From Tubulanus polymorphus (taxonomy: Eukaryota > Animalia > Nemertea), in contig NC_134036.1 in the NCBI RefSeq assembly GCF_964204645.1, positions 8,608,030 through 8,672,029 of the forward strand: a DNA stretch of 64,000 nucleotides, read 5' to 3'. Numbering within the stretch: the stretch's first letter is position 1; every line of letters starts with the position of its first letter. A model generated the notes under the pieces. That model had not been told where the DNA came from. It ran no database searches and worked only from the letters and a program-made list of their open reading frames with translations. Shown in pieces: positions 1 through 48,601 of this stretch. The position numbers were made by a program, and so were the translations under genes.

Positions 1-779
1 GATCTTGTTTCAACTTGCGCACCTAAAATACATATCAAATAAGTTCTAATTGATTGATTTATTCTTTGTATGCCAGCTTTAGTAAAACCTTCACTATTTT
101 CTAAAATGGAATTAACCCAACCATTATTGTTTTGTTGTTGTATATTATTATAATATTTAGGTAATTCATACCAATTTAGTGTTCTTATATCTGAATTTGT
201 CATTATTTCCCAAATTCGTTAGTATATAATATTCCTAATCCACCCATTGTTCCAATTTTTGCTCTAAAATCCTTATTTGAATTAATATTAAATTCATTAC
301 GTATTTTATAAAACTCAGAAAAATTAATATTATTATTCAATTCTTTAAAATATTTTGAACCTGGTAAAGGACATTCTAATTCATCTAATATTAATTTTAT
401 TTGAAAATAAGTATGAAATCTAAAAAGTGATAAAATCAATGGTAAACTCGGTTTATTTAAATGATCATTCCAACTAATTCCACATCCTGTTGTTGCGCAA
501 TAAACAGCAAAATTTAATTGGTTCTGCCAATACTTCATATTAGATTTTAATAACCATTGTTTTGCCTCATTTAAATTTTTGAAATTAATTTCATAAACAT
601 TGAATATATTTTTCCATCTTTACATGAAAATTATTACTTTCAGTAACAGAAATATATAAATCAATTAATGAATTTAGAGCTTCATTTCTATATGAAATAT
701 CTTTATTAAAATCTATTGCAGGAATATTATATTTAATTGATTTATTATATTGGAAAGCTTTTGGAAAACTATCTACCAT
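1..779 (-). pseudogene. Viral protein of unknown function, frameshifted, runs off the window
   Basis: ORFs 591..779 and 203..538 (YWQNQLNFAVYCATTGCGIS...FRFHTYFQIK...CPLPG) plus a further frame near 1-130 (GFTKAGIQRINQSIRTYLICILGAQVETRS). I recall these motifs from invertebrate Polinton-like elements; unverified. Confidence 0.6.
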
Positions 780-795
780 TTATATAATTAAAAAA

Positions 796-1197
796 TTAAT
801 AATTTATTAATTCTTTGAATAATTTATCTTGTTCTTCAACTGTTATATGGCCATTTAAACTTATTATATAATCTAGTGTATTCTTTAATTTATTAATTTC
901 TTTATTACTTTTTATATTTAATTTTGAACTTATACCAGTTAAAACACTTGACGATAATCCTAACACACCAATTGATACAGCTAAAGGTGTAAATGGTGAA
1001 ACTATTGCTAAAAATGTTATTACAGAACTAATTGTAACCGAACCACTTATAATCAAATAATATATAATTTTACTTTTTAAATATTTTTTCTTTTTTATCT
1101 TTAAGTCACTTTCAAATTCTAATATTTGTTTTTCTAAATATATTTTTAATTCAGTTTTATTTATATGATGAGGAATAATATAAATATTATCATCCAT
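796..1197 (-). CDS. Small viral membrane protein with two hydrophobic helices
   Basis: 133 aa; hydrophobic segments IIYYLIISGSVTISSVITFLAIV and PLAVSIGVLGLSSSVLTGI flanked by charged helical regions; TAAATG start. Confidence 0.65.
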   Translation of the reverse strand: MDDNIYIIPHHINKTELKIYLEKQILEFESDLKIKKKKYLKSKIIYYLIISGSVTISSVITFLAIVSPFTPLAVSIGVLGLSSSVLTGISSKLNIKSNKEINKLKNTLDYIISLNGHITVEEQDKLFKELINY

Positions 1198-1216
1198 TTA
1201 TTTAGCAAAAAAATTA

Positions 1217-1639
1217 CTAATTAGTAAACTTATAAGCAACAAATATAACAATAACTGTTCCACCTAAAATCCATATTATTTCATATTTCTGTTGTTCTTT
1301 ACTCGGGGTATAATAATCTGATAATTTTGGTTTGTATAGACGTAATTTTTCTTTATTGGTTACCGCGTTATATAAACTCATTGCATCATCAACTGATTGA
1401 AAATCTCTATGTGAAATCTTCTGATCATATAATTCCTTGTTAATATAATCCATATACTTTTGCCTCTTTTCTCTATATTCTTCTGCAGCTTTATTGTATT
1501 TCTCTAATGCTAAGTTATGCCTTTTTTGTTCTGTTAATGATCCATTTTTATCAATATGCTTAAATAAATAACCACCACCAGTAAATGCTAAAGCGTTAAC
1601 AATTGCTGATACTATAATAGTTATAACTGCAGAAGCCAT
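1217..1639 (-). CDS. Small viral protein with hydrophobic termini and a central coiled coil
   Basis: 140 aa; MASAVITIIVSAIVNALAFTGG...KRHNLALEK...PKLSDYYTPS...IIWILGGTVIVIFV; TAAATG start. Confidence 0.7.
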   Translation of the reverse strand: MASAVITIIVSAIVNALAFTGGGYLFKHIDKNGSLTEQKRHNLALEKYNKAAEEYREKRQKYMDYINKELYDQKISHRDFQSVDDAMSLYNAVTNKEKLRLYKPKLSDYYTPSKEQQKYEIIWILGGTVIVIFVAYKFTN

Positions 1640-1663
1640 TTATTTAGTAAAATAATTACGCAT

Positions 1664-1878
1664 TTATATAGGAGGAATATATTTTTGTTTTTCCAAATAA
1701 TCAATAGTTAAATTAGATAAAGTAACTGCTAATGTTAATTTTCATTGATACCAAATCTATCAACATTAACACTTCCCATTTTAAATACTTTTTTTAATAC
1801 CGTTGAATAACCAACAGTTCCAACTGATAGTAATGCTCCATTATATAATCCAGTTATTATCCACTTATCATCACTCAT
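1664..1878 (-). pseudogene. Small hydrophobic viral protein, frameshifted (not in the ORF track)
   Basis: MSDDKWIITGLYNGALLSVGTVGYSTVLKKVFKMG...frameshift...LTLAVTLSNLTIDYLEKQKYIPPI*; TAAATG start at 1878. Confidence 0.6.
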
Positions 1879-1881
1879 TTA

Positions 1882-2235
1882 TTAATCAAAAAAATTACAA
1901 TCTTCAAAATATTTAGTTAACTTATTTATGATTAATTCAACATTTATTTCATTACTAGTTTCATTTGTATATATTTCAATTATTATTTTTTCAATATCTT
2001 CTATGATAAAATCTTCATCTAATTCATAAAATCTTAAAGATTCTCTAATTAAATTAGTAATCTTTTGTACATTTAAAGTTTCTTTATCTATTGTTGTTTC
2101 ATACTCAAATGTTGTTTTATTAGAAAATGCAATATTTTTAATATGTATAATTACATCAGTAATGTTAAATTTCATTTCTTTCTCATGTTTAAAATCAAAT
2201 CCAAAACATATACTCGGTCCAACAGTTATATTCAT
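1882..2235 (-). CDS. Hypothetical acidic viral protein
   Basis: 117-aa open ORF in the gene array with a TAAATG start; no motif recognised. Confidence 0.55.
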   Translation of the reverse strand: MNITVGPSICFGFDFKHEKEMKFNITDVIIHIKNIAFSNKTTFEYETTIDKETLNVQKITNLIRESLRFYELDEDFIIEDIEKIIIEIYTNETSNEINVELIINKLTKYFEDCNFFD

Positions 2236-2251
2236 TTATATAATGAAAAAT

Positions 2252-3011
2252 TTACTCTTTACATCTTAAAACTAATTCATAAATTACGGGAAAGTTATTT
2301 AAATCAATTAAATAACCATTATGATTTCTTATTTCTAATTTGAAATTATTGAAATGTGGAATACATGGTTTAAAATCACATTCAGCTAAATTATAATTTA
2401 TTTGCGCTCCAAATTGTTTAACATTTTTTCATGGTAAAATATTTAATACACAAGAATTACAAGTTATATCTTTAGTTGCTTCAAATGTTTTTGTAGGATC
2501 AATTAAATTGCAATAAATATAAAAATTTGTAAAAGGCATTAAATTTGATCTACCTTCTGCGTTTACTGTAACAATATCTGGGTTAATTCCTAACAGTTTA
2601 GCTAAAGGTTTTCTTACTGTAAATTTAAATTGTTCTTCATGAGCTAACCTAATCTTTATTTTATTAGAACTATCACTTTTTGAAAATCTAATACTAAATC
2701 CGGAATCACTTCCTAATTTAGCTCGAGCTTTTCTATTAATTTCTTGTGCTAATGTATCTAAATTATATAATCCTGGTTTTAAATATATAAAAAACCATTT
2801 ATTCCTTTTTTTTGTAAAAGATTGAAAAAATTAAATGTTCTAGACTTTTATCCGATATATTGTAAAATGAGTTACATAAACTTATATTTACTACTTTTAA
2901 ATCAACACAATTCTTAAATTCTCTATCTAATTGTATTAGTAAATTATGTGATTTATAATTTGAAAGTTTTCTAGAATCAACAAATATTCTGTATTCTTTT
3001 AATTCTACCAT
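2252..3011 (-). pseudogene. Minor capsid (penton) protein, Polinton/PLV/virophage type, disrupted
   Basis: IFVDSR...NISLCNSFYNI, then after a frameshift KPGLYN...LAKLLG...FYIYCNLI...LEIRNHNGYLIDLNNFPVIYELVL: the usual mCP motif order. One frameshift and one internal stop. Confidence 0.75.
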
Positions 3012-3081
3012 TTATTTATAACATAAAAAAAATTACCGCTCATCACTAAAAATTAATTTTAATAAATTTTTTCCTTAATAA

Positions 3082-4414
3082 ATGGATGAGAAGATAGCAT
3101 GCGAAATTTGTGGTGAACTTCTAAGAAAAAGTAATATGGCTCGACATATGAAAAAACATGATGAAAATTATAAACCCCCTAAACTAAACTGCCCAAAATG
3201 TTATAAATTATTTTCAAGAAATTATGATAAAAAAACATTCAGAGAAGTGTAAAATTAATGGCGTAACGGCTAATGTTGATAGTAACGAAAGTAATAGTAA
3301 TTCTGTTGAAGTTGAACCTGAAATTATTTGGAAAAGACCTTTCTTATTCTATGACAAGGATAATATAAAAGATCATTTCTGCGAGCCTTGTCGAATGAAA
3401 TTTAGGCCTGAAAATATAGAAGATTGGGAGAATCATCAATTTCATAAAGTACATATAGATAAAATTTCTAATAAATTTGAAACTGAATACAATAAAAGAA
3501 AAAATATTTTATTAGAAAAAATAAAATATGAGAAAACGTTACCAGATAATAAAGAAACAGTTGAAAAGTTAGAAAAACAATAGAATGAATTAACAAGAAA
3601 AACATATTATTGTAAATATTGTAAATTGATTATTACAACAAGTAATTTAGATCTACATAATAGAACAATAAAACATAAAGAAAACGTTAGAAAATACCAA
3701 GAGCTTAATGAAGATCTATTATCAAGCTATGATAGAAAAAATGCCCACAATGTATTTATGAGTACTTAAGACAAAAAGGTCCTGTGATATTTTGTAATGA
3801 ATGTGGATGGCAAAAAGAATTTATGGGGTGATGAAAAAACTAGAAATATTCTTATAGAACCAAAATTAAATTATCTAGATGAAATATTTAAGATATTTTC
3901 TATGGAAGATCATACACCAGAATATATGCAATGGCTTGAAAAAATGAAAATAATAGAAAATAAAAATGGTGAAATAACTAAAAAAGATATTATAAAAACA
4001 ATAATTCCATTAACATTTAACACAAAAGAAAAGAAAATGTATTTATATTTATTATTTAACGATTATTATTATTATGAAAAACCTAAATTAACAGAAGAAG
4101 ATATGGAAAATATAAAAAAAACATTCAAAAAAATATTAATGTATCATTTGGAAAATAGAATAACAGATTCAATTAATTATGAATTCTTTTTAAATAAGAT
4201 TGTGAATTATTTAAACATCGATATTATAATTCCATTTGATGAATTAACAAACAAAAAGAAAACAAAGAGAGCGAGATGAAATGTGGCACAATATAACACG
4301 TTATTTAAATGAGAAAAATGAAATGGAAGAACCTAAACAAATTATACAAAAACAATTGAATGAAAGAGAAGAAACCAGTAGCGATTTCGAGTTTGATGAT
4401 ATTGATCCATTTTA
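3082..4414 (+). pseudogene. Multi-zinc-finger viral protein, disrupted
   Basis: ATG at 3082: CEICGELLRKSNMARHMKKH, CPKC...H...C, CEPC...HQFHKVH, CKYC...HNRTIKH. Pieces 3224..3583 and 3797..4279 are separated by stops and frameshifts; 3' end approximate. Confidence 0.6.
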
Positions 4415-4867
4415 ATAACCATAAGGTAATTTTTTTATACCATCATCTAAAATATGCCTTTTATCATCAAATGGATTCAAACTAGTTTTTTCAACTTCAT
4501 TAATGTACATCTCGTGATCTTCTGATCTTAAACAATTCATTTTGTGTTTCATTACAATTGAGTTATATAAACACTTTATATAATCTTGAAATTCGATATG
4601 TTTATCAACCACATGTTTTGTTATTCCTTTTAACTTTTTAGCTTCATGATCTTTTAATCTATAACTATACATTTTACTTCTTATCCCAACAAATTCAATC
4701 ATTTCATCACCCCCTAATTCATCTTTAAATTTACCAGGAATCTTTTTATTATCATTGCTAAATAGTTCATGATCTTTGGGATAATTGCTAAAATCAAAAT
4801 GATGTTTTAATGTTTTTATGTCTTTTGTTATGTCATTTGTCTTGATTTTTAGTATGTACGCATCAGT

Positions 4868-5921
4868 ATTGAACGCAATTAATGGAAATCCACAGTTAAA
4901 TGTACGATCTTCAGTTGATAAATCATAACATAATCTGTTGGGTTATATATTTCAAATAAATCTTTAACTTCTTCTGTTACCTCATTTTCTACATGGCTCA
5001 AATTAAAGCAATTTGGTTTAGATTTAATCAATCCAATATTTATATTAAAACCTAATGAATTGCATAATATATTCAATCCTGATATAGCAACTTTTCCTTT
5101 TTGAACTAAAGATATCGTTTTGCGGTTTTTGAAACTTCTTGAACCATCTGCAGCATAGAACGCAATGAAGAACCACTTTCTTAAATTATTTTTTGCATTT
5201 AATACATAATCTGGAACTATCTTTTCTTTTGTTGAAGTATTACTTTTCACTATTGCATGAATATAGAATTCATCATTATATTTTATAGCAAAATCTTTAG
5301 GATTATTTACAAGTATTCTATAAACTGCTGATGATTTCATAACATCCATGATTCTAAATGTTTTATGTGAATAAACTTCTTCACAGAATTTCTTAATTCT
5401 TTCTAATAATTTTAAGTCTTGATTGCATAAATACCAAAAATATTTATTACCCCAAACATAATTATACACACCTGCTGAACCATTACCCATGAAAAATCCT
5501 TTGATAAAATATTCTTTTTCTTCTAATGTTTCGGGTTCTATATTATAAATATTATCAATAATTTCATCGAATGACATATGATTCATTCTTTGGAAAAATC
5601 TTATATGTAATAATTCATCTCCAATTTTTATATCAGTTGGTTTTCTTTCATCACCATTTCGTTTAATTAAACTATGATCTTCTGTAACATCTACAAACCC
5701 TAATTTAGTTCTAACTCTATAGATTTTCTTATTTGTTTTATGTCTAATAATATTCTTTAATTTTTTCCATCCATTTCTTGTCCAAACATCCATTAAACCA
5801 TTTATTTGTATTAATTCTTTTTCACCGTATGAAATATAACATTCATTTTGTTTTGGAATTATTTCTGAAATTCTTCTTATCAATATTTTATCATTACATT
5901 TTAATAATATTGGGGTGTCCC
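4868..5921 (-). mobile_element. Intein with LAGLIDADG homing endonuclease in pPolB motif C (N-terminal junction deleted)
   Basis: DTPILL (block A remnant), VDVTEDHSL (block B TxxH), FIKGFFMGNGS and FFIAFYAADGS (LAGLIDADG pair). After a 1-nt frameshift near 4928 it reads YVYDLSTEDRTFNCGFPLIAFN, then extein T-D-A-Y-I-L and polymerase FDFSNYP...PGKFKDE. Confidence 0.92.
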
Positions 5922-6511
5922 AAAAAGTGGTTGTAAAACATTATAATAAAAATCATACATTAATAATTTTGATACGTCTAAAACAGTTGAACCAATGAAT
6001 ATAGGTTTATTAAATTTCATTGACGTTCTTTTTAATTTAACTGCTGTTAAATAATCTTCAAATCTTTTATTTCCTAAATGTCTAAGACTTGATTGTAAAT
6101 GTCTTAATCTTTCAGAATTATTTACTAATTCAATATCATTTCTATTTCTAATATTTTCACATGTTTTACCATAAAAACTATTATTCATTAATTTGAAGAA
6201 ATATTTTTCAAAATCTGTTTTTGATATGGTTCTCTGTTGAGTATTAAAATCTATATATTTTTCTAACCACTTCGATTGATTAAATTCAATATATCTATGT
6301 ACTTTCTTTAATTTCATTCCTTGTTTAAGATAAAATTTTAACATTCTATAATGAACAATATAATTGTATTTATTATTTTGAGTAAGTATTAATTTTTCTG
6401 TAAAAACATGATCTTTCGGTTCTATTTTCTTCTGGTATTCACTTAAATAACTATCATCTACGACTTAATGTTCTCGGCAATAAGGTAAGTTTCTTGTTTT
6501 AAACTTTATAT

Positions 6512-7325
6512 CTTATGGAATACCTCAAGGGCCATACGACTTACGAGTTACGTTTTACGACTTACGAGTTACGTTTTACGAGTTATAATTTACGTTTTAC
6601 GAGTTACTTATACACTTCCATCAATACGTTACGACTTCCGATTTACGACTTACGTTTTACGACTTACGTTTTACGAATTGCACGTTTTTCACTAATTGGC
6701 TTCGGATATCCGAAGCGCGTAATTCAAAGAACGGGTTTCAAAATGAAGTCGAATTGTCATTTCAAACAGCATAATAAGAGTAATTTATTGTACATAGTGA
6801 ATCAATCTCGACTGCAGTGGTCTATTACAGGGCAGAAAACCTGCGCGTTGGCCATCTGCTGTGCGAACCTTCTCAAAATCTATTAAATGCTGACAATACA
6901 TTTCACACTGACTGATGACTGCCCCGTTACGTGCACGATGATTTTAATAGACGATATTTCAATAGATCTTAGCTGGAAATAATTTTAATAATTAGAACAA
7001 GATTCATCAATTTAGAAAAAATGTATTTATTTTTTGAAAACACTGGGCTGCATACGGCCATCCATCATCGTTACAGTTATTCGTCTAATAATTACACCCA
7101 CACAGTGAAATGCCTACCACGTGGCCACTGTCCTTGAACTCTTGCGAACCGAAACTCCAACACTCGTAAATCGTAACTCGTAATTCGTAAAATGTATTTA
7201 AGTTGTAATTCGTAACTCATAAAACGGAAGTCGTAACGAATATTCAAGGAAATGTATAAGTAACTCGTAAAACGTAACTCGTAAGTCGTAAAACGTAACT
7301 CGTATGGCCCTTGAGGTATTCCATA
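6512..7325. mobile_element. Non-autonomous TIR transposon (MITE) inserted in pPolB
   Basis: TIR TATGGAATACCTCAAGGGCCATACG / CGTATGGCCCTTGAGGTATTCCATA; subterminal TTACG repeats; ATAT on both sides (6508-6511, 7326-7329). Removal restores YPENIKFKTRNLPYC. Confidence 0.9.
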
Positions 7326-10300
7326 ATATTTTCAGGATATTCTAAATCAACTACAAAGAAATAACCAATTGGTGCTTCATCTTTTAAACTCGCAATTGCG
7401 CTTTCCCAATCAGTTTTATCACCATTTTCAACTTCTGTTAATATAAAATTTTTTTATGGTTGAGGTTGCATCATTGCCCAACCATATAAATTATTGGCGT
7501 CAATATATAATAATTCATATTCATCATTTGCTTTAAAATATCTATCTCCCATAACACCACTAATTCCACCTCTAATTGATTTTTCAAATAATAAAACCAT
7601 GTCTGGTTCTTTTAATAAATCTAATTCTACATTTGTATATTTTAAACCACATTGCCAGGTTAAACGAGGACTAGAGTAGCAATAACAAGGATCAACATTA
7701 AAATGATTCAAATTAACTTCTCTAAATTTTTCAAATATGTCAGCCAATATCATAACATCTGATTTTAAATATAAATCAACTAATTCACCATAATTTTTCA
7801 TCTTAAAATGGTTCCAAATATTTAATGTTCTATTAAACACTTCATCTTTCACATACTCCTCTTTTGATTGATCATAAAATTGATCTTTTAATAATTATGT
7901 TACATTAAAATCATTGTCTGTTTTATAAAATGGATAAGGAATTGCACCTTTATATCTCAATAATTTAAAATCTTGTTCATTTGGATAAAAATATTGAGTT
8001 ATCATAAAGTCATTATCAACTAAACTTTTTGATAAATTATCTAATGAACTTGCTAGAAATCTATAAGAATCTAAAAATCTAATGCAACCAAATTGAAATG
8101 AAATATAATTTTCAGATGTTTTAGCTAATATTTTAACATATTTTCTTACATTTACACCATTCATAGCATTATATTCTTCTATTTCTTGATTAATTGCGCC
8201 CAATTTTCCCGATAATTGTTTTATAAATAGATAGGTATCATAGCCTGATAAGTTATTAAATAATATAGGAACGAAATTTACTTTTTTAGCTTGTAAATTA
8301 CAATATTACAATATTTTGAATTTAAATGATCATGATCTCTAACTTTTTTATCAAATGTATAAAAACGTTTTTCACAATAACAACAATGAGTTGCATAATT
8401 AAAATCAATTTCATCCTCTTTTGTCATAACTATTCTTTTATTTTTGTATAATAATTCTGCAAAATCACTTTCTAATTCAATTATTTTGTTACAAAAATCA
8501 TAAACTAAATTTTCACCTCTAAAAGAAATATATTGACTTTCATATAATTCAGGGTAATTTGATTTCATGTAAATTCCCTAAGCAGCAGCTCTTTGATGAA
8601 CTTTTTTAACTGTATTACTGTATTTATAATTGGTGGGTCTTGAATTATATCTTCATTTACTTCATTTCCTTTATCCATTGATTTTAATAATTGCTTTTTG
8701 TTATATATTTCTTTTCTATCTTGATCAGTTAATTCTTTATTCAACGATTCAAAATCCCCATAAATTACAAATGGAACAATATTTTTAAATTTATGATTAG
8801 TAAATTTCAATTTATAATCTTTTTCTGTTGGCATTATTAATTTACAAAAAACTTTATTATCACATAATTCTTTATGTTTTAGTAACGCATTCTCAGTTCT
8901 AAATTGAGATAAACATTTTCTACATAGATAAATTTTATTATGGTGATCACTTTCTGTTCTAAAGAATAAATCAATTTGTTTTAACCACATATAATGTTCA
9001 TTTTCATCTTTTTTGTAATATAACAAATCTATAGCATTTTCATCATCATTATATTCTGTTAAATATAAAGCTTCCAATGTATAATCTTTAATATTTTCAC
9101 CTTTTGTCTTTGGTAATTGCATTAATTCGAATACATTTATTTTTAAATTATTAATTTTTTCTATTTTGGGTATCATTTTTATAGTTACTGGATATTGATC
9201 AATTTTATATAATGTTTCATATTTCCGGTAATTTGTTATTCTAAAACTATGTGTAATCTTCTGTTGGGTGTAAGCAACTAATAATTGACCATAGAAAACA
9301 TTTATTATCTTCATTTTGAATATTTATTACTGCTTTTGTTGTAAATGGTAATTTAATATAAGATGATGCTTTAATATCCTTTTCTGTTGTAAAGTTTGAA
9401 TCTTTTTTAAACATTGTTTTACTTTTTGATGTTTTATTCCTTTTTGTATTATAAACATTTAAATCTAAAAATATAATTTCATTCAATGATAAACCAGAAC
9501 CCTCAAAATATCTTTCTTCAATATGACGTTTAAATTCATTAAATAGTTTTTCTAACTTCTTTTATTTGCGTTTTTGAAATTATTTCTTCAGAGAGTGTTT
9601 GAATATTATAATCCATTTTCTCTTCTGACTTTAAAAAACTTACTTTCCCAGAGATACTAATTTTTGGATATTCAACATCTGTTATCAAATCTAGTATTTT
9701 TTCTATTATTTCATTAAATTTACTCTAATCTTCTATTGTTGTACCTTTAAAAATCTAAATATAATAGCTGCAGGACCAATTTTACTACGTAATGTTTCTA
9801 ATATTTCAATTGTATCTTTTATTTCTAGTGAATCAATATAATTTCTAACATTTTCCATGTAAGGTTTATTTGAAATGGATTTAGTTTTTGAAGTTGGTTT
9901 TTTTACGTTTTGAGGTTTATCGTCGAAATAAACTTTTCCTAAAACATTATTACTCAAATTTTGATGGTGTTTTTGTGATTCGAGATGTCTATTATAATTC
10001 CTTTTTACTATAAATTCATTACAAACTTCACATTTTATTTCATCCACATTCATATTTTCTAATCGTTCTTTTCTTTCATTGGAATTTTCTGGAGTTTCAA
10101 AATCTATTACATTTTTCATATGATTTGCAGATTTTTCATGTCGTGATTTTTGGGATTTTTTACAATATTGGCAATAATATTGATTTTTAATGACATTATT
10201 GTTTTCTGTATGTTGTTCATTCTCTGAATCAATTCTGAAATAATTTCTATTAAAACGTTTTGCGACTTTAATCCGAGTTGTTATGTCGTAATTATTTCCC

Positions 10301-10883
10301 AATTTGTTTTTTAAATCTCATGTCCCCGGAAAGCTTCAGTAATATATGGTTGATGTGGTAAAAATTACCGTATTCAGACAAATTTCTTTTGTACGGTAAC
10401 ACGATCTGAGTGACATACATTTTTTTACTGGAAACCGGTATAGAGTTGCGTTTTAGCGCCAAATAAAAACTCTTTGCCGATTCATGGACCTATTCTATTA
10501 GACTAATAAAAAGGATTCTTGTTCGGTATAGATAATAAATACCTGAGACATTAGAATGATAATCAAAACTTTTTTAACGGGAACATTTTTAACGCTCGCA
10601 TACAATAACATTTTCGTCATGACCGAATTGATAACTTAACCATGAACGTGTATCCCCTTGTAACCAGCTTAATGCTGGGCTCCAAAAATGCTTTTCGTAC
10701 ACCCCCTGGAACGATGCCATCCGTTCACTGGCCGTTTCTATGCGGAGATGGCTGTTCATCGAAATATTTGCTCTGAATGAAATTCTTTTTAACGTAACTC
10801 CAGACATACCATAGTCTGACCGGTGAACAGAACTCCCTGACCTGGCACGTAGAGCTTACTCTAGTTCATACTTTCAGGCATCT

Positions 10884-11628
10884 CTTACAGACTGATTGTA
10901 CCGTACCCTCAGTCACCTCTCCTTACAGACCGATTGTACTGTACCCTCAGTCATCTCTCCTTACAGACTGATTGTACTGTACCCTCAGTCATCTCCCCTT
11001 TCAGACTGACTGTACTGTACCCTCAGTCATCTCTCCTTACAGACTGATTGTACTGTACCCTCAGTCATCTCCCCTTTCAGACTGACTGTACTGTACCCTC
11101 AGTCATCTCTCCTTACAGACTGATTGTACTGTACCCTCAGTCATCTCCCCTTTCAGACTGACTGTACTGTACCCTCAGTCATCTCTCCTTACAGACTGAT
11201 TGTACTGTACCCTCAGTCATCTCCCCTTTCAGACTGACTGTACTGTACCCTCAGTCATCTCTCCTTACAGACTGATTGTACTGTACCCTCAGTCATCTCC
11301 CCTTTCAGACTGACTGTACTGTACCCTCAGTCATCTCTCCTTGCAGACTGATTGTACTGTACCCTCAGTCATCTCCCCTTACAGACTGACTGTACTGTAC
11401 CCTCAGTCATCTCCCCTTACAGACTGATTGTACTGTACCCTCAGTCATCTCCCCTTACAGACTGACTGTACTGTACCCTCTGTCATCTCCCCTTACAGAC
11501 TGATTGTACTGTACACTTAGTCATCTCCCCTTACATACTGGTTGTGTTGTCCTCACTCATCTCTCCTTTCAGACTGATGTACTGTATCCTCAGTCATCTC
11601 CCCTTGCAGTCTAATTGTATTGTACCAG
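10884..11628 (+). repeat. 38-bp minisatellite array 1 (~19-20 units)
   Basis: Unit CAGACTGATTGTACTGTACCCTCAGTCATCTCYCCTTA. Confidence 0.95.
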
Positions 11629-12443
11629 TCACCGGTTGCCAGTACAGTAAAGCATAGTTAAGAACCTTTGCGCGAATTTGGTCGAAAGCGATGTCGACGG
11701 TGAAGTCCACTGACCTCATTACGATCGACAATGTAGATTTACCTCTTCATGCACATAAATGCTAAATGTGTGTGTACTTCCCGATTTCAAAATTCTGAAA
11801 TAATTTCTATTAAAACGTTTTGCGACTTTAATCCGAGTTGTTATGTCGTAATTATTTCCCAATTTGTTTTTTAAATCTCATGTCCCCGGAAAGCTTCAGT
11901 AATATATGGTTGATGTGGTAAAAATTACCGTATTCAGACAAATTTCTTTTGTACGGTAACACGATCTGAGTGACATACATTTTTTTACTGGAAACCGGTA
12001 TAGAGTTGCGTTTTAGCGCCAAATAAAAACTCTTTGCCGATTCATGGACCTATTCTATTAGACTAATAAAAAGGATTCTTGTTCGGTATAGATAATAAAT
12101 ACCTGAGACATTAGAATGATAATCAAAACTTTTTTAACGGGAACATTTTTAACGCTCGCATACAATAACATTTTCGTCATGACCGAATTGATAACTTAAC
12201 CATGAACGTGTATCCCCTTGTAACCAGCTTAATGCTGGGCTCCAAAAATGCTTTTCGTACACCCCCTGGAACGATGCCATCCGTTCACTGGCCGTTTCTA
12301 TGCGGAGATGGCTGTTCATCGAAATATTTGCTCTGAATGAAATTCTTTTTAACGTAACTCCAGACATACCATAGTCTGACCGGTGAACAGAACTCCCTGA
12401 CCAGGCACGTAGAGCTTACTCTAGTTCATACTTTCAGGCATCT

Positions 12444-13452
12444 CTTACAGACTGATTGTACCGTACCCTCAGTCACCTCTCCTACAGACCGATTGTACTG
12501 TACCCTCAGTCATCTCTCCTTACAGACTGATTGTACTGTACACTCAGTCATCTCTCCTTGCAGACTGATTGTACTGTACCCTCAGTCATCTCTCCTTACA
12601 GACTGATTGTACTGTACCCTCAGTCATCTCTCCTTGCAGACTGATTGTACTGTACCCTCAGTCATCACCCCTTACAGACTGGTTGTACTGTACTCTCACT
12701 CATCTCACCTTACAGACTGATTGTACTGTACCCTCAGTCATCCCTCCTTGCATACTGGTTGTACCGTAGCCTCAGTCATATCCCCTTACAGACTGATCGT
12801 ACTATACCTTCAGTCATCTCCCTTGCATACTGATTGTACTGTACACTCAGTCATCTCTCCTTGCAGACTGATTGTACTGTACCCTCAGTCATCTCTCCTT
12901 ACAGACTGATTGTACTGTACCCTCAGTCATCTCTCCTTGCAGACTGATTGTACTGTACCCTCAGTCATCACCCCTTACAGACTGGTTGTACTGTACTCTC
13001 ACTCATCTTACCTTACAGACTGATCGTACTATACCTTCAGTCATCTCCCCTTGCATACTGATTGTACTGTACCCTCAGTCATCTCCCCATATAGACTGAC
13101 TGTACTGTACCCTCAGTCATCTCTCCTTGCAGACTGATTGTACTGTACCCTCATTCATCTTCCTTTATAGACTGACTGTACTGTACCCTCAGTCATCTCC
13201 CCTTACAGACTGATTGTACTGTACCCTCATTCATCTCCCTTTATAGACTGACTGTACTGTACCCTCAGTCATCTCCCCTTACAGACTGACTGTACTGTAC
13301 CCTCTGTCATCTCCCCTTACAGACTGATTGTACTGTGCACTTAGTCATCTCCCCTTACATACTGGTTGTGTTGTCCTCACTCATCTCTCCTTTCAGACTG
13401 ATGTACTGTATCCTCAGTCATCTCCCCTTGCAGTCTAATTGTATTGTACCAG
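12444..13452 (+). repeat. 38-bp minisatellite array 2 (~26 units)
   Basis: Same unit, with more variant copies. Confidence 0.95.
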
Positions 13453-37000: not shown

Positions 37001-40000
37001 TTACAGAGCGCGCTCACACGCAAACCAGTCACTCGAAACTAAACAATGCTAAAGCAAAGCTAAATCTGACTACGTCCTGGTTCGACGTGTTGATCAGGCC
37101 AAACATGCACCGGACCATCTGGCATCCGTGTGAATACAGTTGTTCGGGGCCAGAATTTTCCCCTGGCCGACTACGACGAGGCTTATGATTGGCGCCAGAC
37201 CTACCACCGGGACCAAGTGTGATTCTCGTGACGTGAAATCAAACGAAATCAATGAAAATTGCACGTATATACAATACCTTTGACTCATCGATTACAAATC
37301 CAGTACCATACAAATCTATTTTGAATTTGTTTTCGCTATCAGAGGTGATACTCTTAAATTGGACAATACCGAGTGGCGGTGGTCGTTTACCCTCCGTTCT
37401 TGCGAAGTTCATATCCATCAAATCTATACTGTCATCCTAGAGGAAATCATGAAGCGTGTACATATATTAGGACGAAGAAGTGAATAGCGGGCACTGACCG
37501 GTGATCGAACCTGGGCCTCGTACATAAAAAATAAGCGTGCTAATCAGTAGACCGATAGCGCATAGAGACCACTCTAGGTCAGTGATTTTACAGCTTGATG
37601 TCGTATTTTGCGTAACGGAATGTACTTTATAAAGGCGACAATTGAAATACAATATATTACGTATAAGGTATTAATCTGTCATCAAAAACACGATAGGCTC
37701 TGCTGTTTTAGCTGGGGACTACTATACAACGAGACGAGTAGTACTTTTAATGTTTAAGGTTTCGCTACAAATGTATAGAAACTTCAGCAGGTGAATGGGT
37801 AGAGTAGAGTCGATGGTAAAACAACAGTATTTATAGGCAAACTGACACTGATTACAGAGAACTGAGTGAGAAGGAAGATTACAAATATATTGATGAGTGA
37901 CGTGATAATTAATTACTAAGTGAGTGAGTAGATATATAATTGATTACAGAAAATAAACTAGAATAAATCAAAGAGAAATGAATCTAAGTAAAACTAAATC
38001 AAAGTAAAATAAGCAGAGAGTAACTAAGAGCAACGAATGACAAAAATGGAAGTCCGAGGGATAAATCCAGATTTCATAACAAACGGAATCACCGCGTTGA
38101 ATTACAGTTTTTGTTCCATGATTTCGCACGAATGTTCATTTTATGGTTGATTATTTTCGATATTCCCATCGATGTGTTGGCCACTTTAGAAAGGCAAATA
38201 CTGGTCTCTTTCGTGCGTGACATTTATTGATCTCCCGATCATATCTACTGGTAGCTCATTAAATGAAAGAGGTGTAAGGGACACTTTGGAGCTACTGTCT
38301 GTCACACCTGCTCTCCGTGCGACGGTTTGGTCCGTAATTTCGTTAATAATCAATTGATTTGTGAATACTATCTATCAATTTGTTCAGTTTGATATGTGCA
38401 TTCAGAAATAAATTATGAATTGGCATAAATTTGTTCGTGTTTTCATCTATCGGCAATTTTTTACCGAGCATTACGCGAGCGTATGCTGAGTTCACTATCG
38501 CTGATACATGAAAACAAAAACAACTTTAGTAAAAATCTTTTATTTCTGAATGCAAATTCCTTACTGAACAAATAGTTGCGTAACATAGGTATGTAAACCG
38601 ATTATTAACGAAAGTACGGACCAAACGTCGCACGGAGAGCATGAGTGACAAACTGTAATAAAGCCCCATCGTTTACCATTCTGAGAGATTTTAGTGGTCA
38701 GTTGAAAAAGCTTTCTTGTTTTCGCTGATTAAGCGTACATTTTTGGGTGGCCCAATTATTTCTCATTTTCATCAACTAACTATCATGCTAATTGAATTCA
38801 CATTCCAGTAAAGCTGTAATATTTCAGTTGATTCAGAGGTCGCGAATTTTGTGGAATGCACTCTGTATATCTGCATTTAGTCTTTCGATTTCAAAATTAT
38901 TTCACTCCCGGCAGGTGTGGTGGGTGGGTGGACATAAAAATGAAAACAAATCAAATCGGAGATAACTTTACCTTGATGTTGTATCGAACTTTAGAGTATA
39001 AACTGGTCCCAGCGAATCCATTATCTCGAACTGCAGTACGAATCAACAAGCTATAATTATTCTCATCTCCGCTTTCTAGAGTTAAATACTCGACTGGTAC
39101 CGCTCCCAGTTCGGCCATGAATTTACAGTAAACCTTCATGAATTTGCCGGAGCTCCTCAGAATGTAGTAATCGCCGTCGGTGCTGCTGCCCGTTCTTTTC
39201 AAATTCAGACACGAAGTCGGCGCTGGATTGCTGCTACTCGTCATTTCGTCCGACGGATAATCGACTATTATTTGTATAGGAATGTACCTGTTACAAACAA
39301 TGATAAGCAATGAACTCTCGTATGGCATAATTGGAAATGGAAACAGGGCAGGGACGGACACAGAGAGACGGAGATAATCAGGGACAGAGACAGAAACATA
39401 GACAGAGACAGAGACACAGAGACAGAGACAGTGAAGACAGAGAATACAGAGACAGAGAATAACGGGGACGGGGACGGGGACGGAGACCGAGACAGAGACA
39501 GATACACAGAGACAGAGACAGGGACACAGAGACAGAGAATACAGAGACGGAGAATAACGGGGACGGGGACGGAGACCGAGACAGAGACAGATACACAGAG
39601 ACAGAGACAGGGACAGGGATTTGGACATAAATATGGGCATGGACATGGATAGAGACAGAGACAGGGACAGGGACATGGACATGAACAGGGACAGGAACAG
39701 GGACAGAGATATGGGCAGAGACAGGGACAGAGACATAGACAGAGACAGGGACATGGACAGGGACAGAGGCAGGGACAGTGACAGGGACAGAGACAGGGAC
39801 AGGGTGAAGACGTAAGTTGTGTACCTGCTGACTGGTAAAATACCAGATGATATCGATCCGCCTACGTATGCACGAATAGTTTCACCACTCAATAACCTCC
39901 AATCAGACTTTGTTACAGTTTGGAATTTCGGAAAAAAACTAGTCGCTTCCGCGTTAGGATTACCGCCATCAGGAACACGCCAAAACTATTTGAAAAATTT

Positions 40001-46000: not shown

Positions 46001-48601
46001 CCAACTAGCCGTAGGGTTACATTGATTATCGAACTATAAAACCGAACTTACCCGCCTGCTAGCTTTTGAAGCTAGGGTTATTAGATTCAGCCCCCGGTTT
46101 CAAAGTTGATTAAGAAATCACAGTCTATAATACCGCCCTTAGACGATCATACAATTATAATAAAGAAGTTTCCAGTTTCTAGGCGCCATTTCGTGGCCAT
46201 CCCACGAGGTCCCCATTGTTGCGATAATTTGCGCTCATTTCTAAAACATAAGTTTTGATTTAATGCCATGTAGCTCTGCAGTCCCTTGCTTGATTAACTT
46301 CATTTATAGACCATTCTAAGGAAATGAAATGCGGATATTTACTGGTGATTCTTGGATTTTTTGAATGCAACAATCGAGAGCAGTGACGGTGTAAAACCAA
46401 GGACCGCATATTTTAACCACGCGTCGAAAAATTGCGATTTTCATAGATTTTGAAATATCTAAGTGGTTAATAAAGCTAGATTTTCCATCGTTATTGTGGT
46501 TATGGAGCGTAATTTACAATTTCTGCGTTGAAATTTCTTAGATGTAAAATGGCGCCTAGAAAGTTCACAGAAAGTTCATAAACTCAAAAAAGTGCATCCT
46601 TTAATGCCCAGTGTTCCATATATGACATCAATTTGTTGATTGAAAGCGTACAAGCTACGTTCTGGCCATGGGTCGTATATGACCCTTTGGGTCGTAGTGG
46701 TAAATTTACTTTCATGGAGCGCCACCTGGTGAGTTTTCTACCAACCGACAGGGCTCATATATGGAACATTGGGCTTTTAAGGTAGCATAGGTGCTATAAA
46801 ACACAGCTGTCTCACCCACCATCAACAGTTCTTAAATTCATGACCAGCTACTAAGGAGGGTTCATATTTGACCCGCGGGGCATGTATACTTTAGATACAG
46901 TAGTATTGTATTTATTTATTACTCATCACAGTTGGACAAACTGGTCTAAATCTAAATCACCACGATTTATCAGATGGTAGTCTATTGAAGAAAGCGTAAT
47001 AAGTATCGAAAAAGGATAGGTTATAAATTACACGAAGAAGGTTCAATTCCTGGTCAACTACGATTCGACAGCCCCGAGAAGAAACGTTCTTCTTTCAGGT
47101 TTTTCAATAAAAGGATATCCAAATTTGTTTATATTGATGCAATGAGCTTTTATCTAGTTGATTAGTGTATCTGTTTAAAAAAGACAAATTATCGATCATA
47201 TTTTGAATATTCATCGTTACATTTGATTATATATTGAGTAATAAGTTCGATCAATTCTACCTGGAAACCAAAGCGTTCGATCTGTTACTTATACAACGAT
47301 GTAGGCAATAATCGACCGGTCGAAATTCCAGTGCCAAAAATCCACCAAATTTGATTTCACAACAAAATCTGACAAAATATATCAATATTATTAAGTTGAA
47401 AAAATCTTTTTCGTGAATGCAAAATTATATGGCGTCGGTCATTATATTCATCTCGGATAATCTGTGAATTGATACAAGCTACATACGACATATTTTTTTT
47501 TTACCTGCTAAGCGCCACACAGGGCATTATAGGTGGGTTCGATGTTTCTTTTGCCCAATGGGGGAGAGACCAGAGAAGAACCTTCGACCAAGAAACTCTG
47601 TCGCCACCAGGGTTTGACCCCATAAAGCCTGGATTGACGAGACCAGCGACCGGCGACTTAACCCACTCGGCCACTGCGCCTCTCTCGACATAACGACAAA
47701 ACGACATAATTCTGTGACTTTAGGCAAGTAACGTTCAAGCTACATGCATTAAGAATGATATTATCGTAAGTTTGAAAAAAGAAATAAACGTTTAAAGTAA
47801 CGATAGAATATCTGTATACAAATGTATTCCTAAATCTTGACGTATAACGTATTATCTACGTAGTTTTTCACTCTAGTTTGATTGAAAACTGAATTTGGAG
47901 GATTTGTACCAAGTGGACTGGGGTGGGGGTATTTACCGGGGGATTTTAATTTGTCGGATTGTTACCTGTTACCCATTCACAATCGGAACACGGTTCCGTA
48001 GTTGCCGTATTAGCGATAAAACACCAGGCTCCGAGCGGTCCTTTGTCAGGGTTCCTGCAATAATTCGACGCAGTTTCCTTGTCTTCCAGCATGTCGTAAT
48101 AGCCTTCCATGAGAGGTTGTCCATATTTCCAGGGATGACACGTTTTACCAGACCGCGTTCGATTCACAGTTCCTCTGTAATCATTACCATAAGCGGGGAT
48201 ACTACTGCAGTCTAAAATAAAAAGAAATATCCAATATAGTGGGAAGGACGTAGGGACGGAGGGAGGGAGGGAAGGAGGGAGGGAAGGAGGGAGGGAGGGA
48301 GGGAGGGAGGCAGGCAGGGAGGCAGGGAGGGAGGCAGGCAGGGAGGCAGGCAGGGAGAAAGGGAGGGAGGATGGGAGGAAGGAAGGGAGGGAGAAAGGGA
48401 GGGAGGGAGGATGGGAGGGAGGAAGGGAGGGAGAAAGGGGAGGAAGGGAAGATATCTTGTTTGAATTCAGTGCTTTACTGAGGTCATTGAACACTAACTG
48501 ATATTTGACAAGACGATTAGAATTCAAATCTGTAGATCATTCTTACCGGCACTCAGGAAATAAACCAGTAACAAAACGAACGAATATCTCATGTAAGTCA
48601 T
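27940..48601 (-). CDS. Host gene (13 exons): signal peptide, Kringle x2, GON x2, EGF x3, hydrophobic C-terminal tail
   Basis: GT-AG exons with compatible phases: 48601-48547, 48211-47966, 45731-45495, 44679-44414, 40760-40584, 39985-39825, 39287-38972, 37436-37278, 36129-36009, 35754-35704, 35162-35037, 32035-31910, 30781-30659, plus a tentative terminal exon 28079-27940. Confidence 0.75.
28757..29490 (+). repeat. ~122-bp GC-rich tandem repeat, 6 copies
   Basis: Units start TGACCGGGCCTTGATCA and end GTTCGAAAAACG. Confidence 0.92.
30659..30781 (-). CDS. Exon: EGF-like domain 3
   Basis: [34 protein letters not shown]; CAG acceptor, AAG|GTAAG donor, phase 1-1. Confidence 0.72.
31642..31683 (+). 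ncRNA. Minimal type I hammerhead ribozyme remnant (Penelope-like), core variant
   Basis: ACAC-CCGACGA-CGATC(loop)GATC-GAAAC-GTC-GTGT; stems I and II pair; core reads CCGACGA instead of CTGANGA. Confidence 0.55.
31910..32035 (-). CDS. Exon: calcium-binding EGF-like domain 2
   Basis: [42 protein letters not shown]; phase 1-1. Confidence 0.88.
34150..34845. repeat. TTGTCGA/CGACAAT repeats in both orientations plus ~50-bp AAGTGGCTGGGATCGA repeats (MITE remnants)
   Basis: Short repeats at 34150-34230 and 34660-34845; ~50-bp units at 34277-34500, also at 32910-33030. Confidence 0.6.
35037..35162 (-). CDS. Exon: calcium-binding EGF-like domain 1 (not in the ORF track)
   Basis: [41 protein letters not shown]; phase 1-1. 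Confidence 0.9.
35389..35635. mobile_element. TA-flanked MITE (Tc1/mariner type)
   Basis: ~60-bp imperfect TIR CGGCTGCGGTCAGA..AAGCTCTGTGG / CCACAGAGCTT..TCTGACCGCAGCCG; TA at both ends. Confidence 0.7.
35704..35754 (-). CDS. 51-bp micro-exon: end of GON domain 2
   Basis: [17 protein letters not shown]; phase 1-1; AAG|GTCAGT donor. Confidence 0.55.
36009..36129 (-). CDS. Exon: GON domain 2 continuation (donor tentative)
   Basis: CAG acceptor; LPLRSTVC...FVMCFS; phase-1 donor G|GTAAAG fits the next exon. Confidence 0.5.
37278..37436 (-). CDS. Exon: GON domain 2, middle part
   Basis: [14 protein letters not shown]...[10 protein letters not shown]; phase 0-0. Confidence 0.8.
38295..38655. mobile_element. 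TA-flanked MITE (Tc1/mariner type)
   Basis: TIR TGTCAC..TGCTCTCCGTGCGACG..TTTGGTCCGTA..TTCGTTAATAATC and its reverse complement; TA flanks. Confidence 0.8.
38972..39287 (-). CDS. Exon: GON domain 2, N-terminal part
   Basis: PTSCLNLK...DGDYYI...KVYCKFM...PVEYLTL..G.ENNYS...GTSLYSKVR. Confidence 0.85.
39350..39805. repeat. (GACAGA/GGGACA)n simple repeat
   Basis: Direct inspection; source of spurious SLSLS and DRDRD ORFs. Confidence 0.92.
39825..39985 (-). CDS. Exon: GON domain 1, C-terminal part
   Basis: Open frame FWRVPDGG...[14 protein letters not shown]; phase 0 to 2 matches both neighbours. Confidence 0.65.
40300..40447. repeat. Pentanucleotide repeat (GGTAT/GGTGT/GGCGT)
   Basis: Direct inspection. 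Confidence 0.92.
40584..40760 (-). CDS. Exon: GON domain 1, middle part
   Basis: [10 protein letters not shown]...YGLGWGC...[12 protein letters not shown]; TAG acceptor, GTAAGT donor. Confidence 0.8.
41700..41900 (+). mobile_element. 3' fragment of a CR1/L2-group LINE
   Basis: KTRS...[27 protein letters not shown] resembles the ORF2 C-terminus. Confidence 0.45.
42649..43085. repeat. 75-bp tandem repeat (~6 units, two TCCAATGTGTTTGGA subunits each)
   Basis: Unit starts at 42649, 42724, 42799, 42874, 42949 and 43024. Confidence 0.92.
44414..44679 (-). CDS. Exon: GON domain 1, N-terminal part
   Basis: PCLRYK...DGTYLV...[19 protein letters not shown]...WRKLRV; donor GAG|GTAAG. Confidence 0.82.
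44757..45275. mobile_element. TA-flanked Tc1/mariner-type MITE
   Basis: TA-CAGAGGTTGTCTC ... GAGACACCCTG-TA, with inner inverted segments. Confidence 0.7.
45495..45731 (-). CDS. Exon: Kringle domain 2
   Basis: [27 protein letters not shown]...NYCRNP...[18 protein letters not shown]; phase 1-1. Confidence 0.92.
46605..46776. mobile_element. TTAA-flanked MITE (Kolobok/piggyBac type)
   Basis: TIR GCCCAGTGTTCCATATATGA / TCATATATGGAACATTGGGC; TTAA on both sides; related copy near 32360-32495. Confidence 0.75.
47493..47685 (-). mobile_element. tRNA-derived SINE
   Basis: A box TGGCCGAGTGG, B-box-like GGGTCAAACCC, poly(A) tail, flanking direct repeat CGACATA. Confidence 0.8.
47966..48211 (-). CDS. 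Exon: Kringle domain 1
   Basis: [21 protein letters not shown]...NYCRNPD..GAWCF...C..C; six cysteines. Confidence 0.9.
48255..48450. repeat. (GGGA/GGCA)n purine-rich repeat
   Basis: Direct inspection. Confidence 0.9.
48547..48601 (-). CDS. Exon: signal peptide
   Basis: [18 protein letters not shown] followed by G|GTAAGA donor, phase 1, matching the Kringle exon. Confidence 0.65.

What the first reader, a model, noticed from the sequence alone, without database searches (positions are those of the whole stretch)
4868..5921. Giant-virus-type homing intein inside the protein-primed polymerase of an animal endogenous Polinton-like virus
Seen: a ~350-codon insert with Hint blocks (DTPILL, TEDH, YVYDL..N) and two LAGLIDADG motifs, ending exactly before Thr-Asp of polymerase motif C. 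Known: YxD|TD is the pol-c site used by PolB inteins of archaea and of giant viruses such as Mimivirus; true inteins are not a feature of animal nuclear genes. From memory, VWT..GW..(L/I)K..IRHKT.KKIYRV.T..G.(V/I)DVTEDHSL closely matches the Mimivirus PolB intein. Inference: the intein moved from an RNA-primed giant-virus PolB into a distantly related pPolB during co-infection, then entered an animal germline. I know of no well-described case, but cannot confirm novelty.
Basis: partly seen in the sequence, partly recalled or inferred. Interest (0 to 1): 0.92.

Follow-up and report, generated by a model that had tools for sequence, protein, structure and literature searches.

The report
Giant-virus-type intein in animal Polintons
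A virus-like Polinton element in this animal's genome carries an intein (a protein insert predicted to splice itself out) in the catalytic motif of its DNA polymerase, in some copies and not in others; inteins are held to be absent from animal genomes, and this one likely came from a giant virus and likely spreads between copies by cutting empty ones.

Summary
Real, and wider than this window. Window 4868-5919 (minus strand) is a Hint/LAGLIDADG intein at the pol-c site (YxD|TD) of a Polinton-type protein-primed polymerase (pPolB). This copy is broken: it has lost the N-terminal junction and has a frameshift and a transposon-like insert. Reads of the same species show tens of copies, with and without the intein. 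Databases hold intact intein-bearing pPolBs in five other lineages, one from a distant pPolB class. All pPolB inteins tested form one group (100/99). They share a shortened C-terminal block with one group of giant-virus PolB inteins; the six that could be named are Imitervirales. The direction of transfer is not proven (AU p=0.36), and Mimivirus was not tested. In one multicopy family, all 11 fixed differences between plus and minus copies lie beside the site, as homing or target escape would leave. Splicing and cutting are untested. Ten literature searches and five intein look-ups in this scan's notes found no earlier description. Precedents: inteins in algal endogenous giant viruses and an insect iridovirus.

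The parts
4868..5919 (-). Intein at the pol-c site: Hint N-part (blocks A remnant and B), two LAGLIDADG motifs, Hint C-part ending in Asn. Broken in this copy: N-terminal junction missing, frameshift near 4925, first LAGLIDADG motif without its catalytic acid.
4412..4867 (-). C-extein of the pPolB, starting with Thr-Asp of polymerase motif C
   Evidence: 75-77% identical to intein-free P0213/P0214
5920..6507 (-). N-extein next to the intein, holding polymerase motif B (KLMNNSFYGK); last residues before the site are missing in this copy
   Evidence: (74.7% to P0213)
6508..7325 (.). 818-bp non-coding insert with inverted arms (MITE-like), GC 37%, interrupting the pPolB; absent from many copies
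   Evidence: joint 6507->7326 in 144 reads of X5; arms 6510-6579/7260-7329; GC
7326..10225 (-). N-terminal part of the pPolB in several frames (exonuclease region, endonuclease VII-like insert with VRDHDH, motif A)
   Evidence: Pfam DNA_pol_B_2 E 1.5e-5 and 4e-4; tblastn map
2429..2830 (-). Piece of a probable minor capsid (penton) gene
   Evidence: ESM Atlas features: DUF5901 cluster 0.96, Sputnik V18/19 0.95, recognition below the tool's 2300 mark; single-sequence fold unusable
777..3084 (.). Seven copies of an upstream motif AATT(A/T)TT-N5-14-TAAATG, each at an ORF start of the element (six on -, one on +)
   Evidence: 7 seen, shuffle mean 0.59, 0 of 300 shuffles; pattern drawn from the instances
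10225..10231 (.). Right end of this element copy, at the start of the pPolB, joined to low-copy DNA of about 37-45% GC
   Evidence: GC step; depth falls from about 590 to about 8 and 309 reads run on into other sequence at 10224
38951..39985 (-). Host exon with a GON domain (animal gene; context only)
   Evidence: Pfam PF08685 E 1.2e-9
47946..48536 (-). Host exon with a Kringle domain (context only)
   Evidence: Pfam PF00051 E 4.4e-14

Best explanation
This is a broken chromosomal copy of a Polinton-type element whose protein-primed DNA polymerase carries a Hint/LAGLIDADG intein at the motif-C (pol-c) site; intact members are predicted to splice out of the polymerase and likely spread by cutting empty copies, and the family likely came once from a giant-virus polymerase. 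Shown: the position, the domain content, the intact reading frames in relatives, the coexistence of full and empty sites in one species and in one database cluster, the single group that pPolB inteins form, and the patchy spread over the polymerase tree. Inferred: (1) splicing by the class 1 route (Ser1, TxxH, terminal Asn, Thr+1), needed because the insert splits the catalytic DTD motif; (2) homing, in which the endonuclease cuts the empty motif-C DNA and repair copies the intein with a short stretch of flank; (3) entry from an Imitervirales PolB in a co-infected cell, probably long ago and possibly in a protist host; (4) later gains, losses and one jump between pPolB classes; (5) arrival in the animal germline as cargo of the integrating element.
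For: Domains and junction. Intact relatives with YxD|S...N|TD and both LAGLIDADG motifs: P0077, P0079, P0086, P0087 and 7 of 15 listed members of the P0234 cluster. Empty sites in the same species: joints 4869->5920, 4858->5920, 4818->5920 (22 reads, 16 starts) and a 385-bp contig; depth 115-266 inside the intein against 366-744 in most extein bins. One group of 7 pPolB inteins, 100/99, with the C-terminal block cut away. Short C-terminal block in 6 of 6 complete pPolB inteins and 21 of 132 others; with that block kept, the two groups join at SH-aLRT 96 and 83. 8 changes of state on a 64-row polymerase tree, 7 forced by starred branches. P0079 exteins 20-37% identical in short weak hits to the other class, its intein 42-46%. 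11 of 11 fixed plus/minus differences lie from 7 residues before to 44 after the site in 1191 positions; 28 scored control pairs show 46 differences within 15 residues against 61 expected. Chromosomal residence: MITE-like insert, copy-specific breaks, animal exons.
Against: No splicing or cleavage data, and no structure model of the intein. The window copy cannot work. A tree with pPolB inteins outside all giant-virus inteins is not rejected (p-AU 0.364); without the C-terminal block the sister group is unresolved, and FastTree did not join the two groups. A tree with P0079 outside the other pPolB inteins is not rejected either (p-AU 0.698, and it scored higher). Empty copies of the P0234 family also differ among themselves at the site (8 of 23 differences for P0471/P0475), and one control pair had 5 of 7 differences there, so the clustering is not specific to intein gain; copies are related, so the binomial p-values overstate. 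Among the plus copies the intein is slightly more variable than the exteins (97.9 against 99.2%), which does not suggest a very recent sweep. No listed read or contig spans the junction at 10,225-10,231. Hosts of the database proteins are unknown.
Confidence: 0.72

Rival explanations
1. The intein is real but no longer mobile: it was gained once in an ancestor of these pPolBs and the patchy pattern comes from repeated loss and ordinary recombination between subfamilies, not from homing.
For: Among endonuclease VII-type pPolBs the intein groups match the polymerase groups (P0086/87; P0234/P0002 family; window with P0077 side). Empty alleles differ among themselves at the site. Change counts cannot tell gain from loss.
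Against: Both LAGLIDADG motifs are intact in 7 of 7 full-length P0234-family copies and in P0077, P0079, P0086, P0087 at only 40-60% identity between lineages; an idle endonuclease is expected to decay (established knowledge). Only 3 of the 120 best extein relatives and 0 of 40 further loci carry it, which would need many losses. P0079 needs a transfer between classes.
Confidence: 0.17
2. The intein did not come from a giant virus: it is old in pPolBs or came from a third source (archaeal, phage or protist), and the giant-virus group with the same C-terminal block received it from a Polinton-like virus or from the same source.
For: p-AU 0.364 for pPolB inteins grouped with the outgroups; long stem (0.5) and midpoint root on the pPolB branch; outgroups are long-branched.
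Against: Giant-virus-type PolB inteins are far more diverse in every search (132 of 139 dereplicated rows are not pPolB). The rooted quick tree nests pPolB inteins deep among them (steps at 84, 92, 81, 85, 83). The long form of the C-terminal block is the common one and is seen in a phage-like outgroup (L028), so the short form looks derived.
Confidence: 0.08
3. The stretch is an assembly chimera or a contaminant: a free virus or giant-virus fragment joined to animal DNA.
For: No listed read spans the right-hand junction; it abuts a duplicated host segment (94.5% over 1.4 kb); the left end lies outside the window.
Against: The polymerase is broken by frameshifts, stops and an 818-bp insert of host-like GC. 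Reads cover intein and exteins in four runs from two studies, one of them by its record a different sample of the same species. Intact relatives have the same precise junctions.
Confidence: 0.03

Closest known systems
Mimivirus PolB intein and the pol-c intein allele (Ogata et al. 2005, PMC549080; passages seen)
   Same: Same site in motif C (YGD|TDS there), Ser/Asn/Thr splice residues, TxxH block, LAGLIDADG endonuclease.
   Different: Host is a protein-primed Polinton polymerase of about 1200 aa, not an RNA-primed delta-like PolB; the target reads YMD, YLD, YQD or ASD before TD in different lineages; the element sits in an animal chromosome. The Mimivirus sequence itself was not compared.
PolB inteins of marine Imitervirales IM_01 and IM_07 genomes (loci L009, L044, L049, L052, L079, L086; names from the supplement of PMC8575486)
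   Same: About 40% identity over the whole intein for the best of this group (L001, L002) and the shared short C-terminal block FNxGFPLIVxN.
   Different: RNA-primed PolB hosts (PF00136); sister relation rests on the C-terminal block.
Inteins in endogenous giant-virus DNA polymerases of Klebsormidium, Tetrabaena and a labyrinthulomycete (Gallot-Lavallee et al. 2023, PMC10710043; section 8 and passages seen)
   Same: Viral polymerase inteins resident on nuclear scaffolds.
   Different: Algal and protist hosts, giant-virus-like polymerases; no Polinton, Maverick, protein-primed or Metazoa term in its two held supplements.
HNH and VSR nuclease inserts of Polinton pPolBs (Jeong et al. 2023, PMC10748475; Krupovic et al. 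2024, PMC11161782; passages seen)
   Same: Nuclease domains inside Polinton pPolBs; Krupovic et al. suggest in one sentence that they result from intein invasions.
   Different: The passages seen name HNH, VSR and GIY-YIG nucleases, not Hint or LAGLIDADG domains; 'intein' occurs 0 times in Jeong et al. and its held supplement. The insert here has splice junctions and splits the catalytic motif.
Chilo iridescent virus intein (named in PMC549080)
   Same: An intein in a virus that infects animals.
   Different: Glutamine-type intein in a non-integrating giant virus; its host gene is ribonucleotide reductase (recalled, no call).

Membership tests
Class 1 intein, pol-c allele | Hint N-terminal region with block B TxxH | tested here: met
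   TIGR01445 above cut-off in the window; TEDH invariant or nearly so in alignment
Class 1 intein, pol-c allele | N-terminal nucleophile directly after YxD | tested here: met
   Met in the family (Ser1 in P0077, P0079, P0086, P0087, P0234 cluster); the junction is missing in the window copy itself
Class 1 intein, pol-c allele | Terminal Asn followed by Thr+1 of motif C | tested here: met
   out of frame with the body in this copy
Class 1 intein, pol-c allele | Penultimate His | tested here: inconclusive
   His in P0234, P0078, P0086, P0087; Phe in the window, Ser in P0077, Lys in P0079 and in the sister giant-virus group
Class 1 intein, pol-c allele | LAGLIDADG endonuclease with two motifs | tested here: met
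   PF14528 above cut-off in P0077, P0079, P0087, P0234; below cut-off and one motif defective in the window
Class 1 intein, pol-c allele | Precise in-frame insert with empty alleles in relatives | tested here: met
   1537-aa plus and 1186-1193-aa minus proteins 97-98.7% identical; empty-site joints in reads
Class 1 intein, pol-c allele | Self-splicing activity | not testable with these tools
   needs expression
Homing intein | Site-specific cutting and copying into empty alleles | tested here: inconclusive
   Differences cluster at the site, protein level only; other causes not excluded
Polinton/Maverick (Polintoviricetes-type element) | Protein-primed PolB | tested here: met
   PF03175 hits; 57-77% identity to pPolBs
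Polinton/Maverick (Polintoviricetes-type element) | Integrase, A32 ATPase, double jelly-roll capsid, protease | tested here: inconclusive
   None found in window 1-10,230, which holds only part of the element. Contigs of 15.6-17 kb with the same pPolB class (33-37% identity) carry rve, Pox_A32 and DJR genes, but none of the window's other ORFs hits them
Polinton/Maverick (Polintoviricetes-type element) | Minor capsid (penton) gene | tested here: inconclusive
   ESM feature hits 0.95-0.98 with low recognition; fold pLDDT 46
Polinton/Maverick (Polintoviricetes-type element) | Terminal inverted repeats and target-site duplication | not testable with these tools
   Left end outside the window, right end truncated, no genome held
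RNA-primed giant-virus PolB | Exteins like PF00136 PolB | tested here: not met
   No PF00136 hit; all ten best BLAST hits of each extein piece are pPolBs in a set that held several hundred PF00136 proteins
Animal Hedgehog/Hint domain | Hint domain without homing endonuclease at the C-terminal end of a secreted protein | tested here: not met
   LAGLIDADG motifs present, polymerase on both sides, no Pfam Hint hit at E 0.1

The most novel reading that the evidence does not exclude
An intein homing cycle is running inside animal germ lines: intact Polinton copies make a spliced polymerase and a LAGLIDADG nuclease that cuts empty copies in the same nucleus or virus factory, and empty copies escape by changing the codons around the catalytic motif. 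The intein entered from an Imitervirales helper virus and has crossed between pPolB classes. The TAAATG gene starts would mark an element that still depends on a giant-virus-type helper.
Probability: 0.35. Interest if true: 0.92.

Novelty: new variant of a known kind. Interest (0 to 1): 0.8.

Why it matters
[quoted passage not shown] Here a canonical intein sits in tens of copies in an animal genome, with empty target sites beside it. It lies in an integrated viral gene, not a host gene, which tempers the surprise. It makes an old question testable: whether animals lack inteins because they never meet them or because homing fails in their germ lines. It is also a marker of DNA exchange between giant viruses and Polintons, which bears on whether animal Polintons share cells with Nucleocytoviricota. 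It adds protein-primed polymerases to the hosts of the pol-c allele and gives a natural series of full and empty targets at 94-99% identity.

Tried and rejected
No genome is held for the window, so copies could not be listed with their flanks. The profile search of 1.84 billion representatives added only fragments of the P0234/P0002-type family among its best 150. P0213 and the penton-like piece found no loci in IMG/VR. PHROGs gave only a weak endonuclease hit. ORF 203-619 stayed unexplained. The penton fold was unusable. No structure model of the intein was obtained, so its fold rests on profile and sequence hits. No RNA holder listed. The 'best rPolB' column mislabelled two pPolBs and was not used; the 'rPolBc' label includes five topoisomerase-type hosts; the labels pPolB1/pPolB2 in my scripts do not match those of Jeong et al. 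and I assign no published group name. Rejected: Hedgehog-type Hint, NCLDV PolB exteins, spliceosomal or group I intron (the insert is an in-frame protein insert in intact relatives).

Full report
OBSERVATION. Window 1 to about 10,230 is 22-25% GC apart from one insert; the rest is 33-48%. On the minus strand a polymerase runs in pieces from about 10,190 to 4412. The intact relative P0077 maps onto it in order: N-extein to 5919, intein 5919-4927, then the intein tail and C-extein 4927-4415. The intein body passes the NCBIfam cut-off for the intein N-terminal region, hits Pfam Intein_splicing and LAGLIDADG_3 below their cut-offs, and best matches PI-PkoII among solved structures. Its end reads FNCGFPLIAFN|TDAY, so it stops directly before Thr-Asp of motif C. 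This is the pol-c site described for Mimivirus and archaea (PMC549080, passages). The window copy is dead: the N-terminal junction is missing at 5919/5920, the frame shifts near 4925, the first LAGLIDADG motif lacks its catalytic acid, and an 818-bp insert with inverted arms splits the gene at 6508-7325.

SETTING. The exteins are protein-primed type: Pfam DNA_pol_B_2, and 72-77% identity next to the site to the intein-free pPolBs P0213, P0214 and P0216. Contigs of 15.6-17 kb with the same pPolB class, at 33-37% identity, carry integrase, A32 ATPase and double jelly-roll capsid genes (34 ORFs of 4 loci scanned). The window holds only part of the element. I found a probable penton piece (weak by the tool's own mark) but no integrase, ATPase, major capsid or terminal repeat, and its other ORFs hit none of 40 related loci. 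Membership in the Polintons therefore rests on the polymerase. The flank is animal: Kringle (E 4e-14) and GON (E 1e-9) exons, a BEL-type DUF5641 piece and a DUF4371 transposase piece; that GON domains are metazoan is recalled.

COPIES IN THE SAME SPECIES. In raw reads X5 (12% of the run read; by its record another sample and study of the same species label) depth is 214-1066 over the element and 4-11 in three flank bins away from the satellite, so the family has tens of copies. At 80% likeness depth is 115-266 inside the intein and 366-744 in most extein bins. Joints skip the intein: 4818->5920 in 22 reads with 16 starts, 4858->5920 in 8 reads, 4869->5920 in 2 reads, and one 385-bp contig of X2. 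The joint at 4869 lies on the intein's C-terminal edge. At the frameshift 126 of 162 reads differ from the window, and 85 reads carry extra letters at the N-terminal junction, so these breaks are particular to this copy. No listed read or contig spans the junction with host DNA at 10,225-10,231; integration rests on the assembly, the decay and the insert.

THE FAMILY. The 22 best of 45 hits of the intein are pPolB-type pieces. Longer proteins include intact intein-bearing pPolBs: P0077 (1693 aa, intein 60% identical), P0086, P0087, P0079 and P0234. Of 15 listed members of the 136-member P0234 cluster, on contigs of 57 kb to 1 Mb, 7 are full-length with the intein and all splice and nuclease motifs, 6 have an empty site, and 2 do not reach it. 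The intein is rare overall: 3 of the 120 best extein relatives and 0 of 40 further loci. On a 64-row polymerase tree its presence changes 8 times, 7 forced by starred branches; shuffles give 10.4. The window's polymerase groups with three empty relatives (100), not with P0077. P0079 is another pPolB class (PF03175 E 9e-32): its exteins give only weak hits to the rest, while its intein is 42-46% identical to theirs. The hosts of these database proteins are not known; some may be protist viruses.

ORIGIN. From 237 complete inteins I kept 217 rows of 300-480 aa and dereplicated them to 138, plus P0234. In a 37-row careful tree built without the C-terminal block the 7 pPolB inteins form one group (100/99), and the window pairs with P0077 (97/89). 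A C-terminal block one residue shorter than usual is present in 6 of 6 complete pPolB inteins and 21 of 132 others. Of 12 genome ids looked up, 11 of them from that group, 6 were in the table of PMC8575486, all marine Imitervirales (five IM_01, one IM_07; supplement rows). With the block kept, quick trees join the two groups at 96 (52 rows) and 83 (30 rows, rooted on three long-branched outgroups). Against this: FastTree on 139 rows did not join them, the join is unresolved without the block, and a tree with pPolB inteins outside all giant-virus inteins is not rejected (p-AU 0.364). A tree with P0079 as sister to the other pPolB inteins is not rejected (0.698). A giant-virus donor is the best reading, at about 75%, but not shown.

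SIGN OF HOMING. Between 7 plus copies and the 3 closest minus copies of the P0234 family there are 11 fixed differences in 1191 positions. All lie from 7 residues before to 44 after the site, 8 within 15. In 28 scored control pairs of intein-free proteins (33 tried, 5 not scored) 46 of 2535 differences fell within 15 residues, against 61 expected, so the region is not variable by nature. This is what co-conversion during homing leaves (established knowledge). But empty copies of that family also differ among themselves at the site, and three control pairs were enriched there. This fits target escape or recombination between subfamilies as well. The copies are related, so I give no weight to the p-values.

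HOW IT LIKELY WORKS. Shown: an in-frame insert that splits the catalytic motif, intact in many relatives, with empty alleles beside it. Inferred: the precursor must splice (Ser1, TxxH, Asn, Thr+1) to give an active polymerase; the released nuclease cuts empty motif-C DNA in other copies; repair copies the intein with some flank. A multicopy element gives it the empty targets that a single-copy animal gene would not. Seven ORFs of the element start with TAAATG behind a T-run (pattern drawn from the instances). TAAATG is the poxvirus late-promoter core (recalled; reading prompted by note e1-8580207, unchecked there). If it marks use of a giant-virus-type RNA polymerase, it supplies the shared compartment for the first transfer; Polinton-like viruses are reported with entomopoxviruses (PMC11296320, abstract start and passages). 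This step is the weakest.

WHAT IS IN PRINT. Ten searches of the held library listed no paper on Hint/LAGLIDADG inteins in Polinton pPolBs. 'Intein' occurs 0 times in PMC8502044, PMC10748475, PMC11131425 and bioRxiv 2026.06.19.733378 and in the held supplements of the first two (long files may be cut). PMC11161782 says in one sentence that nuclease inserts of pPolBs may result from intein invasions. PMC12220804 and PMC3671162 mention inteins only in general (passages). PMC10710043 reports inteins in giant-virus-like polymerases on nuclear scaffolds of algae and a protist (section 8). [quoted passage not shown] Subscription papers, Repbase, InBase and bioRxiv supplements were not seen. Five look-ups in this scan's notes by sequence, place and words, plus one broad word search, showed no intein in a Polinton.

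VERDICT. A known kind of element, the pol-c homing intein, in a host class and a genomic setting where I found no description: new variant of a known kind, interest 0.8. The intein is near certain, the giant-virus donor likely, ongoing homing about even.

Noticed in passing
window 777-3084: Seven ORF starts share AATT(A/T)TT-N5-14-TAAATG, a poxvirus-late-like start; of 40 related loci only L207 has most ORFs (7 of 8) starting at TAAATG.
   Followed up: partly
window 6508-7325: MITE-like insert with inverted arms built of TTACGAG/TTACGTT repeats, itself multicopy by read depth; family not identified.
   Followed up: partly
window 10231-11626 and 11791-13187: Segmental duplication of 1.4 kb at 94.5% that begins exactly at the element's right end and includes a satellite of about 41 bp.
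   Followed up: partly
P0226, P0469, P0471 and others: Motif C reads DCDS instead of DTDS in 19 of 117 intein-free pPolBs; a possible escape from the endonuclease, untested.
   Followed up: no
window 203-619, 796-1197, 1217-1639, 1882-2235: Small ORFs of the element with no Pfam or PHROG assignment; two have hydrophobic stretches.
   Followed up: partly
P0081, L170, L174, L184, L187: Related inteins sit at a D|TDG site of topoisomerase II-type proteins; P0081 seems to hold three inteins, a sign of non-allelic spread of this family.
   Followed up: no
window 31872-48536 (-): Exons of an animal gene or genes with EGF-like, GON and Kringle domains.
   Followed up: partly
L219-L236: Polinton-type pPolB contigs are binned into bacterial and archaeal MAGs of GTDB, probably as contaminants.
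   Followed up: no
window 17720-18550 and 22928-24474: Decayed BEL/Pao-type retrotransposon and hAT-type transposase pieces in the flank.
   Followed up: no
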